Shown here: positions 5,250 to 30,543 of the stretch, one piece after another
Position numbering within the stretch: position 1 is the stretch's first letter
How the letters are laid out: the number at the start of each line of letters is the position of its first letter
Origin: Promethearchaeota archaeon
GTDB lineage: Archaea > Asgardarchaeota > Lokiarchaeia > Sigyniarchaeales > SOKP01
Assembly: GCA_019058245.1 (NCBI GenBank)
Contig: JAHPZJ010000028.1
Coordinates: forward strand, 96,001 to 160,000
Direction: 5' to 3'
Length of the DNA stretch: 64,000 nucleotides
Position numbers and translations under genes: made by a program
Notes under the pieces: model-generated
The model's database searches: none
Told to the model about the DNA's origin: nothing
The model's input: the letters and a program-made list of their open reading frames with translations, nothing else

Positions 5250-6455
5250 TTAATACAAATGCAATCGAAAATCACAGTTGCGACAATGTCCTTCTTTTAG
5301 TTTTTTGAAACATTCTTCATGATAAAGAGTATTACACTGAAGATTTCCGCATTGAACTGCAGATTGACCTTTTTCAAAAATTAAATGACATACAGGACAT
5401 GCGATAAAAAGAGCCTCTTCCCCCAATAAAGCAATATCTTTTACATATTTAGCTGGTATAATATCAGGTTTCTGTGTGGTTTCTTCTTTCAATCCTCTGG
5501 TAAGGACTTGTAATTTTTGAATTTGAGTAACTTCCATTGGTATTTTTAAAAGATAAAAGCAATGTGGACATCTTGCAGTGCCAGATTTCTTTACTTGATG
5601 ATTTTTTTGAGAATCTGCCCATGCGGCTAAACAATGTATATGAAAAGGTGTGGTACAATTTGGGCAATATCTTCCAGTTACATAGAAAGACCCTTTTGTA
5701 TACGGATTTTGATCAGAGAAGCAAATAGAGCATTTTTTAAAATCAACTTCTCCTCTAATTTGTTTTGCTCGTTGTTCTTGATCTTTTGTTAAATCTTGAA
5801 CTCTTAGTAGATCAGCTGCAATCTTTCTAAGAAAAGCAGGATTTTCTATAAGAGTTTCTTTTCTTGATCCATATGTTTTATAGTTATCATCAGCAATTTC
5901 TTTAGCGGAATTAATCAATGATTCAAGATCATTATTGTAAAAATTTCGACCACCTGTAATATCACTTATTTTCTTAAGTATATTTTGTTTTCTTGTATTT
6001 CCTAAACTTAAAGTGTCTATTCGAATATTTAGTCCTTGGGCTAAACGTGCCATTTTGATTGGATCTACAGCAGTTTTCATAGAATTTCCATCAGAAATCA
6101 AAATTATTCGAGGTGTTTTGGCTCCAATTTTACGTAACTCTCCAATTAAAGTTTTTATCGATAAAGCTAATGCATCCCCTATAGCGGAGTAACCACCACA
6201 TTTTAGAGAATCCAAAGCTTCAATGAGATTATGTTCAAAACTTGAAGTGCTAAAGTCCACGACTTTTGTAGCAATATTCGCGTATTTTATTAATGCAAAT
6301 GCACTTAAATTATCTATATTGAATCGTTCTTTAATCAATATCTTACTTGCAGAAATACAACAAGCTAATCTGTTTGGAGAAAAATCTTTTCTAAACATTG
6401 ATCTAGAAGTATCTATGCAAATAACTAGATTTTCAGGAATTCGATTCTCAGACAT
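5250..6455 (-). CDS. vWA domain protein with two C-terminal RING/PHD-like zinc fingers
   Basis: MIDAS DTSRS, MFRKDFSPNRL, ISDG; two C4HC3-type Cys/His clusters (CSIC...CPNC...HIHC...CPHC; CPVC...CGNLQC...HEEC...CRNC). Confidence 0.8.
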   Translation of the reverse strand: MSENRIPENLVICIDTSRSMFRKDFSPNRLACCISASKILIKERFNIDNLSAFALIKYANIATKVVDFSTSSFEHNLIEALDSLKCGGYSAIGDALALSIKTLIGELRKIGAKTPRIILISDGNSMKTAVDPIKMARLAQGLNIRIDTLSLGNTRKQNILKKISDITGGRNFYNNDLESLINSAKEIADDNYKTYGSRKETLIENPAFLRKIAADLLRVQDLTKDQEQRAKQIRGEVDFKKCSICFSDQNPYTKGSFYVTGRYCPNCTTPFHIHCLAAWADSQKNHQVKKSGTARCPHCFYLLKIPMEVTQIQKLQVLTRGLKEETTQKPDIIPAKYVKDIALLGEEALFIACPVCHLIFEKGQSAVQCGNLQCNTLYHEECFKKLKEGHCRNCDFRLHLY

Positions 6456-6683: not shown

Positions 6684-7892
6684 ATGTCTGAAAATAGCAG
6701 TAAGAGTGTAGCTCTTAAAGATTTCTTTAAAAGAAATGTTCTTATTAATCAAATTGAAGAAGTTCTAAGATTTAAACCAGATACGTTAATAGGCGTTGAT
6801 AAAATCAGTTCTGAAAATTTGTCTAATGAAAGTATAAATACTATTGAAGAACTTGCTAATTTATCTGTAGCAAATCTTCCTGAAATAAAAGAAATACTAC
6901 CAAGCATGTTAATGAAATGGGTAAAAATCGCTCAGCTGATACAGAAAACTATAAAGGAACAACTACGGCGTCATAAAAAATTATTAATGATAGGGCTAGA
7001 TAATGGAGGAAAAACTTCTATCCTCGCAGTAGTTCAAGATAAATTCTCGATTATTAAATCTCTTTTACCTACAAGGGGCGTAAAAAGAGAGAAATTAGAT
7101 TTTTTTGGATATCCAATAATAAGTTGGGATTTAGGCGGTCAAGTACAATATAGAGAGAAGCTTTACTTTAATAGACCAGAATTATTTTTCACTGAAGCGG
7201 ATATTATGTTATATGTGGTAGATAGCCAAGATCCTGATAGAATTCCTGAAGCCGCCAATTATTTTCGAGAAGTATTAAAAGTATTACAAGAATTACATGA
7301 ATTACCTTCTGTTATGATTGTTTTAAGCAAAAGTGATCAAGATATACGAAAAGCACTTCAATGGCAACAAAATGTCACAAGCATAAAAAACAAATTTAAC
7401 AGTATTGCTAAGGAATTTGAAGGTTTCTCGGTTGATTATTGTGATACTACTATTTTTCAGAGAGAGACAATAATGCATATGTTCAGTGAGGCGTTAAAGA
7501 AGGTATCTGATACTTCTGAAATAATCGAACATATACTCGAAGAGTTTACACATCAAGTAGAAGCAAAAGCTTCAAGTCTTGTATCAATGGATGGCTTAAT
7601 TTTTGGAAGCTATACTGGATCAGATACAGATGAAATGCTAGTAAATAATACGGCATTATTGCTTCAAACGCTTTCGAACTTCTACAATTCAATTGGCTTA
7701 ATAAGGGAAAAAACGATAAAATTGGAACTACCTCTTAATGGATTTACTATTTGCGGAGAAAAATTATTCGAATATTCCGAATTGCAGATACCTGTATTTT
7801 TGTGGATGCTTTCAGAAAACCCAGAATTATTGGATGGAAGACTTGATTATTTTAGAGAACAATTACTTCCGTTGATTAATCTTTTTCTTTAA
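6684..7892 (+). CDS. Arf/Rag-like small GTPase with N-terminal HhH-like and C-terminal roadblock-like regions
   Basis: GLDNGGKTS, PT, WDLGGQ, SKSD; C-terminal ASSLVSMDGLIFGSY typical of roadblock folds. Confidence 0.8.
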   Translation: MSENSSKSVALKDFFKRNVLINQIEEVLRFKPDTLIGVDKISSENLSNESINTIEELANLSVANLPEIKEILPSMLMKWVKIAQLIQKTIKEQLRRHKKLLMIGLDNGGKTSILAVVQDKFSIIKSLLPTRGVKREKLDFFGYPIISWDLGGQVQYREKLYFNRPELFFTEADIMLYVVDSQDPDRIPEAANYFREVLKVLQELHELPSVMIVLSKSDQDIRKALQWQQNVTSIKNKFNSIAKEFEGFSVDYCDTTIFQRETIMHMFSEALKKVSDTSEIIEHILEEFTHQVEAKASSLVSMDGLIFGSYTGSDTDEMLVNNTALLLQTLSNFYNSIGLIREKTIKLELPLNGFTICGEKLFEYSELQIPVFLWMLSENPELLDGRLDYFREQLLPLINLFL

Positions 7893-8778: not shown

Positions 8779-11190
8779 TTAGGTTCTACAAAGTCTTTTT
8801 AAAAGAGTTGGATCTATTATCTCTTTTGGTTTCCATCCCTTCTCTTTTAGATATGCCATTATCTCATCTTTCATATTAATAGGAATATCCGCTTCCAGAC
8901 GGACAAATTTCTCTAAATCATTAGGAAATTCAACACCCTTATATTTTCTCTCTAAATCGATCCAATGAGATAATTTTATCATTCGTCCTTTAGAATTATC
9001 TGCAGGTCTTAAAGCTAATTTGGCGACTAAACAGATAGCTTGTTCTATACTTTCCGCGGTTGTTAATAGATGTTCAGGTCCAGGTCCCACTAGATGATCG
9101 GCTGTTCCATCTCGAGCATTGAATACTTTCCAAACATCTTCATCATCGGAGCGTCCAATATACATTCTTCTATATTCCGCGGCATGAGGGCCACAAACAG
9201 CTGGTACACCTAAACCATTTGCCATACTTGCAATACTTGCAGCTTTTTGAGACATAGCACCCCATGCAACACCAACTGCTCCAACTCTGTTTAAAACATA
9301 GTCAGCTATTTCTTCAAAATTACCACGTAATGGTCTTCGGGCGAAGATATTAGCAACTTTAATTGCAGCTCCAGTAATATGAGGATTACTTACGCAACTT
9401 CCTACATTTACTAAACCGCCTCTATCAAAATCACCCGGAAATCTATCATATAATGTTTTTCCATCTTCATCCTTTACAAGGCCAATATCCATTGCTCCAC
9501 AGCCTGAAACTACAACTATATAATTTCTTGTTAGAAATTCTTCAGCCATTTTATATAGTTCTTGAATTTCATGAGCATAACTCGCACATCCAATTATTGC
9601 AACAATTCCAGGGATTTCTCCTAAGACAATAGGGGCACCTACATTCCTAATTTCGGTGTCCATAATAGGTCCACGCCCTACTCTACAGTTGAATTTCTCA
9701 TTTCTAATCTGTTCTCTAGCGGCATATTGTAATAAAGTTAAAGGAGATACACCTTTCATACAGTCTCCTTCACATCGTCCACATCCCAAACACTCATCGA
9801 ATGCTCCTGCTAATACTGAGAAATCCCCATCTTTAGCTAATTTTACTCCTTCCACAAGTGGTAAATCATTTGGACAATTTCTTTGACAATTTCCACAGCC
9901 ATTACAATTCATCGCCATATCAATGCAACCTTGTTCATCAGGAACTCCACTTTTTGCTTTTCTAATTGGTTTGACTTTTATTGCAGTTTCAGCTGCTACT
10001 GCACCAGCTTTTATTGGATCTAAAATAAGGACACCGGGTTCCTTTCCACTTACTAAATCATCAACAATTTCATTGATAGGATCAGTGGTTCTATCAGGTA
10101 AACCGCTCATATTCTTTTCATTTGTAGCAATAAATGGAGCTCCAATCAACTGGGCTTGCTCAAATGATCTTAGATTTACACATTGTTCATCAACCATTAC
10201 TACATCTGGAAATCCCGATCGAATCACATGAAGCTGTCTTGACATTGATCCCACAATCTTAGCACCATCATAGTATCTCGTTAAATCATGGGCAGTACAA
10301 CAAATTGCTCCAACATCTACCTTTTCATCTATACCTTTTTCTCTTATATAATCAACTAATTCGACTCCAGGGGCAACGTTATGTCCAATCATCAAAATAA
10401 CTGCCTTACTCGTATCTAATGTTCCCATACCAAGTTCTACAATAGGAACATTAGGATCTCCCATAGGAAATCCGTACGCGGCAATTTGAACAGCATCAGA
10501 AATTTCCATACCTACAGAATCTGCTAATCCTGCTAAAAAGCTTTTTGATTCATAATCTAAATAAGAACTCTCTTGTCCTGTATGTCCCGCCGCTAATAAG
10601 TGTGTTATTGTAAAATGCACCCACTCCATAGCGGTTTCTAAATCTTCTAGGGTTTCAGGTTTCATACCGACAACTAATCTTGTGTGAGGCATCTCAACGG
10701 CTATATTATTCCCAAAATTAATTGGTACATTGCCATACTTTTCTTTTAACCAATGTAATAGATGATCTCCGTGGGCAGAATGGCACGCAGCGCCTATACA
10801 GCAGGCAATCTCTACTATCCGACTCTGTTGTGTCTCCATATTGATCCCGCATGCACCTGTTCGCCCCTTGGAAAGATTACATTTCCCATATGTGCATAAA
10901 CAGCACATATCACATTTGTCGTATATGCACAGATCAATTGTGCATATATATCGGCATGTAAAAAGGTTTGTATCTTTCCATCATTTTGAAAAACCAATTG
11001 CGTAGGGTTGGAATATGGGGCATAGGATTTTACCCTTGAGAAGTCATGCTTCAATCAAGTGAGGTCCCATAGGCTCCCATTCCGTCTCATCTCCGAAAGA
11101 AACTTTACCAGTAGTAAGTTCGAATCCTTTAATCGTTCCGAGAGGACCTTTATATTCATCTATTTTAACTTTAGCTCCTCTTTTTTCCAT
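8779..11190 (-). CDS. cdhA: CO dehydrogenase/acetyl-CoA synthase alpha subunit, three exons: 11190-11061, 11028-10950, 10915-8779 (781 aa spliced)
   Basis: Exon 3 has CCLCTYGKC, HSAH, GHN, CCTAHD, DEQC, two ferredoxin motifs and GSCVSN. Exons 1-2 supply MEKRGAKVKIDEYKGPLGTIKGFELTTGKVSFGDETEWEPMGP-H-PMPHIPTLRNWFFKMMERYKPFYMP-I-CD, matching the conserved CdhA N-terminus (WEPMGPTP...LRxW...RYxPFYxPICDMC). Confidence 0.92.
10916..10949 (-). other. putative BHB-type mRNA intron 2 of cdhA (34 nt)
   Basis: Sense RNA: GCCG-AU^A-UAUAUGCACA auugauc UGUGCAUAUA-CGAC-AA^A-UGU; perfect 10-bp stem; removal gives CCG AUA UGU GAU AUG UGC (PICDMC). Confidence 0.8.
11029..11060 (-). other. putative BHB-type mRNA intron 1 of cdhA (32 nt)
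   Basis: Sense RNA: GACC-UC^A-CUUGA uu GAAG cauga CUUC UCAAG-GGUA-AA^A-UCC; removal gives GGA CCU CAU CCU AUG in frame. Confidence 0.75.
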
Positions 11191-11423: not shown

Positions 11424-12422
11424 TTAAGAAGAGAGTAAATTAAAAATCTCAGGAATTATATTATCAATATTGAAATTAGTTTTAACAGATGTAAATAAAA
11501 AATTCCACTTTCTGTTTTTTATTTTATTAAAATTGTAGAAATTAAAAAGTTCTTCTTTTAATAGTGTAAGTTGTTCATTATTACCTTTATCTGAATACTT
11601 AACTAAATCAGTTTTATTTCCTATAATAAGTAAGGGTGTTCCATTTAATTCATCCTTGTTCAATACATTCCAAAACTCTTTTCTTGATTCTTCAAACCTT
11701 CTTTGATTAGCTACATCAATCATATAGACGATAATGTTGGAATCTTGAAGTCCTTTTAACCATTTTGATCTAAATGATTTTTGTCCAGGCATATCCCATA
11801 CCGCAAGTAAGCCTTTTTCTTTTACAGGAATATATTCAATGTTGAATTTTCTCGTTGGAACAAAAAAATTATCATTAAATTCACCAGTTTTCAAACGTCT
11901 TACTAAACTGGATTTTCCCACTTCATCAATTCCAAAAAGAAAGATTTTGAAAAATGTTTCAGTCTGATAATAATATTCAATATCAAGAGGTTTCTCGATT
12001 ACTTCGTCACCAAACCTTCTAATATCAATGAACATAGAAATTAGTAAATTTTCAACTTCAATTTCATCATTAAAGGAGTACCCATTATTATCACTCAAAA
12101 TTTCAGTCAGCAATTCCTCTGTTATTTCTTTATAGTCATAAGGATTATCTTCATTGTCAAAAATTAACCCAATTATAATGTTTCCATTAATACAAGAAGA
12201 ATAAATATTCATTTCATTAGTAAATTGAGCAATTGGTTCAGCAATTTTGAATTGATTTATATTCGTTTTTTGGCTGCCTTCTTCCTTTTCATGATTTTTT
12301 ATAATCTCATTTATCAGTAATTTATCATTAATACTGATAATTTCATTTGGGTAACTATAAATATTTAGATCCTCTAAATCCTGAATTTCGTTTCCTTTAA
12401 ATAAAAATATATTAAGTAGCAA
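11424..12422 (-). CDS. Arf-like small GTPase with N-terminal longin-like region
   Basis: GIDEVGKSS, PT, WDMPGQ, GNKTD, TSVK; N-terminal IIIGLIFDNEDNPYDY. Confidence 0.8.
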   Translation of the reverse strand: MLLNIFLFKGNEIQDLEDLNIYSYPNEIISINDKLLINEIIKNHEKEEGSQKTNINQFKIAEPIAQFTNEMNIYSSCINGNIIIGLIFDNEDNPYDYKEITEELLTEILSDNNGYSFNDEIEVENLLISMFIDIRRFGDEVIEKPLDIEYYYQTETFFKIFLFGIDEVGKSSLVRRLKTGEFNDNFFVPTRKFNIEYIPVKEKGLLAVWDMPGQKSFRSKWLKGLQDSNIIVYMIDVANQRRFEESRKEFWNVLNKDELNGTPLLIIGNKTDLVKYSDKGNNEQLTLLKEELFNFYNFNKIKNRKWNFLFTSVKTNFNIDNIIPEIFNLLSS

Positions 12423-29949: not shown

Positions 29950-30543
29950 ATGAACCAAGTAAACAATGAACAAATCTCTCTTGATAATATTGATTTACCA
30001 GATAAAATCCCAGCAAAATTTATCAATTCAAGAGTTATCGTTTTCAATCCTTTATATGCTTCATATTTATATGTTATTAAAGGTTTTTTTGGTTCTCCTT
30101 TAGGTATAAATAAACCGAGATTAGAATATTTTTCAAAACCAAGTGAATTGTCTCTAATAGAAGCGTATTATTTATTGGAACGTGATGACATTTCTATTTA
30201 TGATATAAAAGAGAATAAGGTTTTAGAACCGAAGGAATTCTATGAGATTGCTAATAAAATTCATCATAAATTTGCAGAGAAATATGTTATTTACAAAGAT
30301 CTAAGGGAAAAAGGATATATACCGAGACCTGGTCTAAAATTTGGAGCGGATTTTGTCGTGTATAAAAAGGGACCTGGTATAGAACATTCACTTTTTATGG
30401 TTCATGTATTACCTCATGATTCTGAAATAACTGCTATTGATATGGTTAGAGCTGGTAGATTAGCAACATCAGTGAGAAAAAAATTTGTTATAGCAAACCC
30501 ACTAACTAAATCATATTATTTCTTTGAATGGTTTAAGCCATAA
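29950..30543 (+). CDS. endA: tRNA-splicing (intron) endonuclease, catalytic subunit
   Basis: LSLIEAYYL, YKDLREKGY, GLKFGADFVVY, GPGIEHS, RLATSVRKK (Tyr/His/Lys triad). Confidence 0.93.
   Translation: MNQVNNEQISLDNIDLPDKIPAKFINSRVIVFNPLYASYLYVIKGFFGSPLGINKPRLEYFSKPSELSLIEAYYLLERDDISIYDIKENKVLEPKEFYEIANKIHHKFAEKYVIYKDLREKGYIPRPGLKFGADFVVYKKGPGIEHSLFMVHVLPHDSEITAIDMVRAGRLATSVRKKFVIANPLTKSYYFFEWFKP

What the first reader, a model, noticed from the sequence alone, without database searches (positions are those of the whole stretch)
11029..11060. Intron 1: relaxed BHB in the conserved WEPMGP-x-P motif, with two possible pairing registers
The stem is CUUGA/UCAAG plus GAAG/CUUC. Register A (helix GACC/GGUA with a terminal G-A mismatch, bulges UCA and AAA) removes 32 nt and restores the frame (GP-H-PMP). 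Register B (ACCU/GGGU, bulges CAC and AAA) would remove 30 nt and leave the message out of frame. Only A is productive. The sequence is unrelated to intron 2 except for the AA^A 3' site and a TTGAT word, suggesting independent gains of the same structural type.
Basis: partly seen in the sequence, partly recalled or inferred. Interest (0 to 1): 0.75.

Follow-up and report, generated by a model that had tools for sequence, protein, structure and literature searches.

The report
Two-register mini-intron in Asgard cdhA
A 32-base hairpin interrupts the only carbon-monoxide-dehydrogenase alpha gene found in this Asgard (Loki-type) archaeon, and comparison with related genes indicates that the tRNA-splicing enzymes cut it out of the messenger RNA, which the papers I could search describe inside a coding region for only one archaeal gene (cbf5); no spliced RNA was seen here.

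Summary
Observation confirmed. 11029-11060 (minus strand) is a 32-nt insert in the His44 codon of cdhA. Removing it in register A, plus a 34-nt second insert, gives a gap-free 781-aa CdhA. Full-length homologs have His 47, Thr 41, Asn 0 at this position. Four other sequence types (29-31 nt) sit at the same site in other lineages. All give GP-H-P in register A, and two pair the helix fully only in A. Register B is a formally canonical helix about 1 kcal/mol weaker, so some mis-splicing is possible. The genome encodes two EndA subunits, one with the broad-specificity loop, and RtcB. The intron-free sister gene is 91% identical, so the gain is recent. Intron 1 is unrelated to intron 2 but resembles an intron family 98 nt downstream in relatives (p 0.001-0.003, post hoc). 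Introns also recur in mosaic combinations, which suggests mobility rather than de novo origin. No RNA evidence was obtained. This scan already reported such cdhA and other mRNA introns in other Asgard genomes; I found no paper on them.

The parts
11061..11190 (-). cdhA exon 1 (130 nt; ATG at 11190; ends after the first base of the His44 codon)
   Evidence: 17 synonymous vs 2 non-synonymous codon differences to the intron-free sister G024
11029..11060 (-). intron 1, 32 nt, register A
11063..11066 (-). exonic strand of the central helix (GACC)
   Evidence: same strand in five of six carrier types, GGCC in L123
11060..11062 (-). 5' bulge UC^A, predicted cut between 11061 and 11060
   Evidence: inferred from BHB geometry
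11035..11059 (-). inner hairpin (5 bp, 2-nt bulge, 4 bp, 5-nt loop) with the in-frame UGA at 11046-11044
11031..11034 (-). intronic strand of the central helix (GGUA; last A faces G)
11028..11030 (-). 3' bulge AA^A, predicted cut between 11029 and 11028
   Evidence: inferred
11011..11082 (-). exon-exon stem that encloses the intron
10950..11028 (-). cdhA exon 2 (79 nt)
10916..10949 (-). intron 2, 34 nt, BHB-like; near-identical copies in G032, G016, G002
8779..10915 (-). cdhA exon 3; the called 709-aa ORF starts inside the Cys motif
   Evidence: (TIGR00314, 980.8 bits)
29950..30543 (+). tRNA-splicing endonuclease catalytic subunit with a Crenarchaea-type loop (K-P-R); candidate enzyme

Best explanation
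The 32-nt insert is a tRNA-type intron in the cdhA messenger RNA. The pre-mRNA folds the inner hairpin, a central helix whose core is ACC/GGU, and an exon-exon stem. The two-subunit EndA cuts after UC in the 5' bulge and after the second A of the 3' bulge. RtcB joins the exons into CCU CAU CCU (Pro-His-Pro). With intron 2 also removed, the mRNA encodes a 781-aa CdhA. Unspliced mRNA stops at a UGA in the hairpin loop. Shown: insert, frame repair, geometry, enzyme genes, recent gain. Inferred: transcription, cutting, ligation, and which enzyme does it.
For: After removing 32 and 34 nt the gene aligns without gaps to an intron-free ortholog over 2,355 nt and gives 781 aa; homologs are 781-785 aa. 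23 of 30 loci from the genus search have no insert in this span. His is the commonest residue at the junction. Five sequence types of 29, 30, 31, 31 and 32 nt occupy this exact site and all restore GP-H-P in register A; in two (L043, L121/L123) the helix is 4/4 in A and 3/4 in B. All 31 distinct cdhA inserts at seven sites place at 3/4 or 4/4 central helices; a first-position mismatch occurs in 9, G.A in 7 of them. The site-237 family shows two-sided covariation in 6 of 9 pairs. Exons around this site fold more strongly in carriers (-9.7 to -17.5 kcal/mol) than in 28 His-bearing non-carriers (median -7.3; sister -4.9). Two EndA subunits and RtcB are intact; the catalytic subunit is closest to A. 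pernix EndA and keeps the K-P-R loop that gives broad specificity (PMC3241643). It is the only cdhA found, and cdhB and cdhC are intact.
Against: The minimum-energy fold leaves the central helix open: probability about 0.09, best register-A fold 1 kcal/mol above it. Register A has a G.A mismatch and a weak strict outer helix. The relaxed class arises often by chance (bioRxiv 10.64898/2026.10.13.758758), and insert boundaries were chosen partly by motif fit within a few bases. Carriers are not independent samples, and L034 was found with this window's own flanks. The assembly is 76% complete, so a second cdhA could be missing; cdhD was not found.
Confidence: 0.87

Rival explanations
1. Both registers are used: besides the productive 32-nt excision, EndA sometimes cuts register B, removes 30 nt and leaves a frameshifted mRNA, making the site a leaky throttle on CdhA output. 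This adds to the best explanation and does not replace it.
For: B has a 4/4 helix plus inner helix (canonical HBh' class by the rule in bioRxiv 10.64898/2026.10.13.758758) and lies about 1 kcal/mol from A in the window, L034 and L073.
Against: The G that B needs pairs with the inner C at probability 0.72 versus 0.03. B has only 3/4 pairs in two other carriers at this site. No sign that the ambiguity is selected for.
Confidence: 0.3
2. No splicing at intron 1: translation restarts at the Met two codons after the insert and makes a CdhA lacking its first 45 residues.
For: An in-frame ATG follows the insert; databases call such truncated products (P0049).
Against: The G028 lineage has Arg at that codon. 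Exon 1 shows 17 synonymous to 2 replacement codon differences, though part of this may predate the insert. WEPMGP is conserved in solved CdhA chains. Intron 2 would still have to be removed. It does not explain why every insert has BHB geometry.
Confidence: 0.05
3. The gene is a recent pseudogene broken by short insertions, or the insert is an assembly artefact.
For: Two frame-breaking inserts; the gain is on a terminal branch.
Against: No other lesion in 2,346 nt; 143 synonymous to 13 replacement differences in exon 3. Inserts recur at the same base in independent assemblies with intact reading frames. No target duplication beyond one base.
Confidence: 0.04
4. Ribosomal frameshifting or bypass reads through the insert.
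For: A hairpin is present; a CCU codon lies on both sides.
Against: All three frames carry a stop inside the insert. Inserts of 29-32 nt at one site would need three different shifts.
Confidence: 0.02

Closest known systems
cbf5 pre-mRNA intron of Desulfurococcales and Sulfolobales (PMC2738675; Watanabe 2002 and Yoshinari 2006 as cited there)
   Same: Short intron inside a coding sequence, splits a codon, BHB-like and often relaxed motif, host has a two-subunit EndA.
   Different: Asgard lineage; a carbon-metabolism enzyme; two introns in one mRNA; at least seven sites and several sequence types per site within one family; recent and patchy rather than one old gain with losses; splicing not yet demonstrated.
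BHB intron in the 5' UTR of Haloferax HVO_1309 (PMC7714728)
   Same: EndA-type intron in an mRNA.
   Different: That one is outside the coding sequence and was tested in vitro; this one breaks the reading frame.
Non-canonical tRNA introns of Asgard archaea (PMC11291895; bioRxiv 10.64898/2026.10.13.758758)
   Same: BHB boundary, repeated gains at the same positions, two-subunit EndA.
   Different: Those are in tRNA genes, and the preprint found almost no intron families shared between positions; here there is a hint of sharing between sites.
tRNA intron transposition in Thermoproteales (Fujishima 2010, as summarised in PMC4090602)
   Same: Similar intron sequences at different positions.
   Different: There between tRNA genes with very similar copies; here within one protein gene, 26 of 33 columns identical, moderate support.

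Membership tests
Archaeal BHB (EndA-type) intron | 4-bp central helix between two 3-nt bulges | tested here: inconclusive
   Register A has 3 of 4 pairs (relaxed class); the strict 4/4 helix exists only in non-productive register B. Two other carriers at this site are 4/4 in A.
Archaeal BHB (EndA-type) intron | Cuts after the second base of each bulge restore the host product | tested here: met
   Gives WEPMGP-H-PMPH and a gap-free 781-aa CdhA
Archaeal BHB (EndA-type) intron | Flanking helices (inner h', outer h) | tested here: met
   Inner 5 contiguous pairs; outer 2 contiguous pairs in strict register plus an extended exon stem
Archaeal BHB (EndA-type) intron | Host encodes EndA and RtcB | tested here: met
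Archaeal BHB (EndA-type) intron | Absent from orthologous genes at exactly the predicted boundary | tested here: met
Archaeal BHB (EndA-type) intron | Excision shown in RNA or by EndA in vitro | not testable with these tools
Group I / group II self-splicing intron | Catalytic RNA core of hundreds of bases | tested here: not met
   32 nt; no Rfam match in the window
MITE / IS remnant | Target-site duplication and dispersed copies | tested here: not met
   No duplication beyond one A; no convincing copies elsewhere in the genome or genus
Site-237 (CCL|C) cdhA intron family | Sequence and structure similarity above hairpin-preserving chance | tested here: inconclusive
   p 0.001-0.003 in a post hoc pairwise test; model built without the window finds it with exact ends but only 16.6 bits, E 0.1 locally and 5.9 genome-wide

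The most novel reading that the evidence does not exclude
These are mobile, ORF-less micro-introns of mRNA. Intron 1 is a copy of the intron family found 98 nt further down the same gene in relatives, re-inserted at a new compatible hairpin; its GGUA strand, which pairs fully with UGYY targets at other sites, is carried over as the G.A mismatch. Intron cassettes also pass between species by gene conversion with short exon flanks. That would be a traceable route of intron gain in protein genes of the archaea closest to eukaryotes.
Probability: 0.4. Interest if true: 0.88.

Novelty: new variant of a known kind. Interest (0 to 1): 0.72.

Why it matters
If spliced, a core Wood-Ljungdahl enzyme in the lineage closest to eukaryotes depends on tRNA-endonuclease splicing of its mRNA, a process documented inside a coding sequence only for cbf5 in the papers searched. 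Public annotations of such genes are truncated (709-736 aa instead of about 782), so metabolic reconstructions are affected. The site offers a clean test of how EndA chooses between a relaxed productive register and a canonical unproductive one. Five insert types at one codon, with intron-free sisters, make the open question of how archaeal intron DNA arrives directly testable.

Tried and rejected
A junction pattern scan of metagenome contigs found no spliced copy, only another intron carrier. No 100%-identical spliced protein is in the collection. P0159 looked like the spliced form of carrier P0151, but its DNA is only 82-91% identical, so it is an intron-free relative and not RNA evidence. 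A de novo genome scan for BHB plus ORF repair gave 719 mostly chance hits and missed the true register-A intron, so it was not used. Covariance-model hits outside cdhA were coding sequence or intergenic palindromes without frame repair. A first energy comparison with a forced outer helix overstated the gap to the minimum-energy fold; free folding corrected it to 1 kcal/mol. The Asn junction is rejected (0 of 90 homologs). A single clade of site-139 carriers is rejected on the whole-gene tree (p-AU 5e-8), which does not exclude local gene conversion. One alignment call used wrong coordinates and was discarded.

Full report
Setting. The window is G000:C28:96001-160000 of a 3.09-Mb, 76%-complete, 29%-GC genome. 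Its CdhA homologs are mostly named Promethearchaeota or Lokiarchaeota in the sources, so it is taken to be a Loki-type Asgard archaeon (inference). The ORF 8779-10908 on the minus strand is CdhA (TIGR00314, 980.8 bits) but matches the model only from position 65. The missing N-terminus lies upstream, from an ATG at 11190, in other frames.

Observation. Of nine candidate cut pairs with at least three helix pairs, only register A (11060 to 11029, 32 nt) restores the conserved motif. All three frames have a stop inside the insert. A shuffled insert matches the motif as well in 0.16% of trials. The fold by itself is only about two standard deviations better than shuffles.

Gene model. Exons of 130, 79 and 2,137 nt give 781 aa without internal stops, collinear with the intron-free gene of G024. 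Codon differences to that sister are mostly synonymous: 17 to 2, 9 to 2 and 143 to 13 in the three exons. The ORF callers' product starts after the first Cys of CDMCC; from my own knowledge of the M. barkeri structure that Cys is a D-cluster ligand. This is the only cdhA found; a CooS-sized paralog, cdhB and cdhC are elsewhere, and cdhD was not found.

Which register. At the junction, 90 full-length homologs have His 47, Thr 41, Ser 1, Gln 1, Asn 0. The same base carries other inserts in other lineages: 30 nt in L034, 31 nt in L073, a different 31 nt in L043/L074/L075, and 29 nt in L121-L128. Register A gives GP-H-P in all. In L043 and L121/L123 its helix is fully paired while B has 3 of 4; in the window, L034 and L073 it has the G.A mismatch and B is 4 of 4. 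B always removes two bases fewer than A, so it is never productive. Among 31 distinct cdhA inserts at seven sites, 17 have four helix pairs and 9 have a mismatch at this same first position, G.A in 7. The mismatch is therefore a tolerated feature. Energy separates A and B by only about 1 kcal/mol, and A lies 1 kcal/mol above the minimum-energy fold, in which the helix is open. Some register-B cutting cannot be excluded.

Exon side. The exons around the site form a stronger stem in carriers (-14.2 here; -9.7 to -17.5 overall) than in 28 His-bearing non-carriers (median -7.3; sister -4.9), through synonymous choices. Selection for the stem or transfer of a short exon tract with the intron could both explain this. 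Carriers are not independent, and L034 was found using this window's flanks.

Machinery. Two EndA paralogs and RtcB are intact. The one in the window (29950-30543) is closest to A. pernix EndA and keeps the K-P-R loop that PMC3241643 showed confers cleavage of relaxed motifs. The other lacks the catalytic His by inspection. Use of these enzymes on this RNA is inferred.

History. On a tree of intron-free coding sequence the gene is sister to G024 (91% identity, 100/100) inside a 13-row clade with no other carrier of this intron. The site needs four changes, and one clade of carriers is rejected (L121-L128 were not in the tree). Intron 1 is unrelated to intron 2 (score 1). Its six best matches are all introns from the CCL|C site 98 nt downstream; the best (L083) has 26 of 33 columns identical. 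Hairpin-preserving nulls give p 0.001-0.003, but the idea was post hoc. A model built from that family alone picks intron 1 as the best hit in the window with exact ends, yet weakly: 16.6 bits against 14.6 for background and 14.1 for another intron. A competing reading is descent from an older intron at this site, since L121 and L073 share a short TTCTCAA word with it. Intron 2 is 32 of 34 identical to the one in G032, whose exons are about 77% identical, and the nearest flanking codons match G032 rather than the sister. One 29-nt intron occurs with different second introns in L121 and L123. Both point to horizontal exchange of intron cassettes (inference).

RNA evidence. None was obtained.

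Comparison. It works like the cbf5 intron (PMC2738675). PMC7714728 lists cbf5 as the only earlier mRNA case and adds a 5'-UTR intron. The 2026 preprint on Asgard introns covers tRNA genes only, warns that relaxed motifs arise often by chance, and calls intron arrival the open problem. Searches found no paper on mRNA introns in Asgard archaea; the library is incomplete. The scan itself has noted such introns in other Asgard genomes and in other genes of this one.

Verdict. A real, very probably spliced, relaxed BHB intron in an Asgard mRNA, productive in register A (0.87). New variant of a known kind; interest 0.72. The mobile-intron reading has probability about 0.4.

Noticed in passing
window 10916-10949 (-): Intron 2 is 32 of 34 identical to the intron in G032 and close to those in G016, G002 and L121, which lie outside the window's clade; nearest flanking codons match G032, not the sister. 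Suggests horizontal transfer with a short exon tract.
   Followed up: partly
L034-L084, L121-L128 (cdhA of relatives): At least seven intron sites in cdhA (reference nt 139, 217, 218, 225, 237, 352, 519), five within the first 240 nt; L121 and L122 appear to carry three introns.
   Followed up: partly
L121 versus L123: The same 29-nt intron is paired with different second introns and different exon-2 haplotypes: a mosaic gene.
   Followed up: partly
window 29950-30543 (+): The catalytic EndA subunit with a Crenarchaea-type K-P-R loop lies 19 kb from cdhA, next to a V-type ATPase A-like gene on the other strand.
   Followed up: partly
P0015, P0021, P0023, P0031, P0034, P0035, P0049, P0120: Public records give truncated CdhA (709-736 aa) for genes whose DNA carries these inserts.
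   Followed up: yes
G000 whole genome: ARAGORN finds only 19 tRNA genes, many with odd intron calls, as expected if tRNA genes are interrupted at non-canonical sites; incompleteness (76%) also contributes.
   Followed up: no
L062:2550-2580, L060: Some site-225 introns also resemble the site-237 family (score 27 between L060 and L038).
   Followed up: no
L097, L102, L104-L106, L109: A recurring palindrome (TTCGTGAAA ... TTTCACGAA), apparently intergenic, in several genomes of the genus; possibly a regulator site.
   Followed up: no
window 8779-11190 and G000:C30:149206-151172: cdhA stands apart from cdhB and cdhC, which are adjacent on another contig; cdhD was not found with TIGR00381.
   Followed up: partly
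L076 (GCA_054390415.1): cdhA has a 28-nt deletion in exon 1, a lesion or assembly error, not an intron.
   Followed up: no
window 5250-6455, 6684-7892, 11424-12422: A vWA protein with a Cys-rich C-terminus and two small-GTPase fusion proteins flank cdhA.
   Followed up: no
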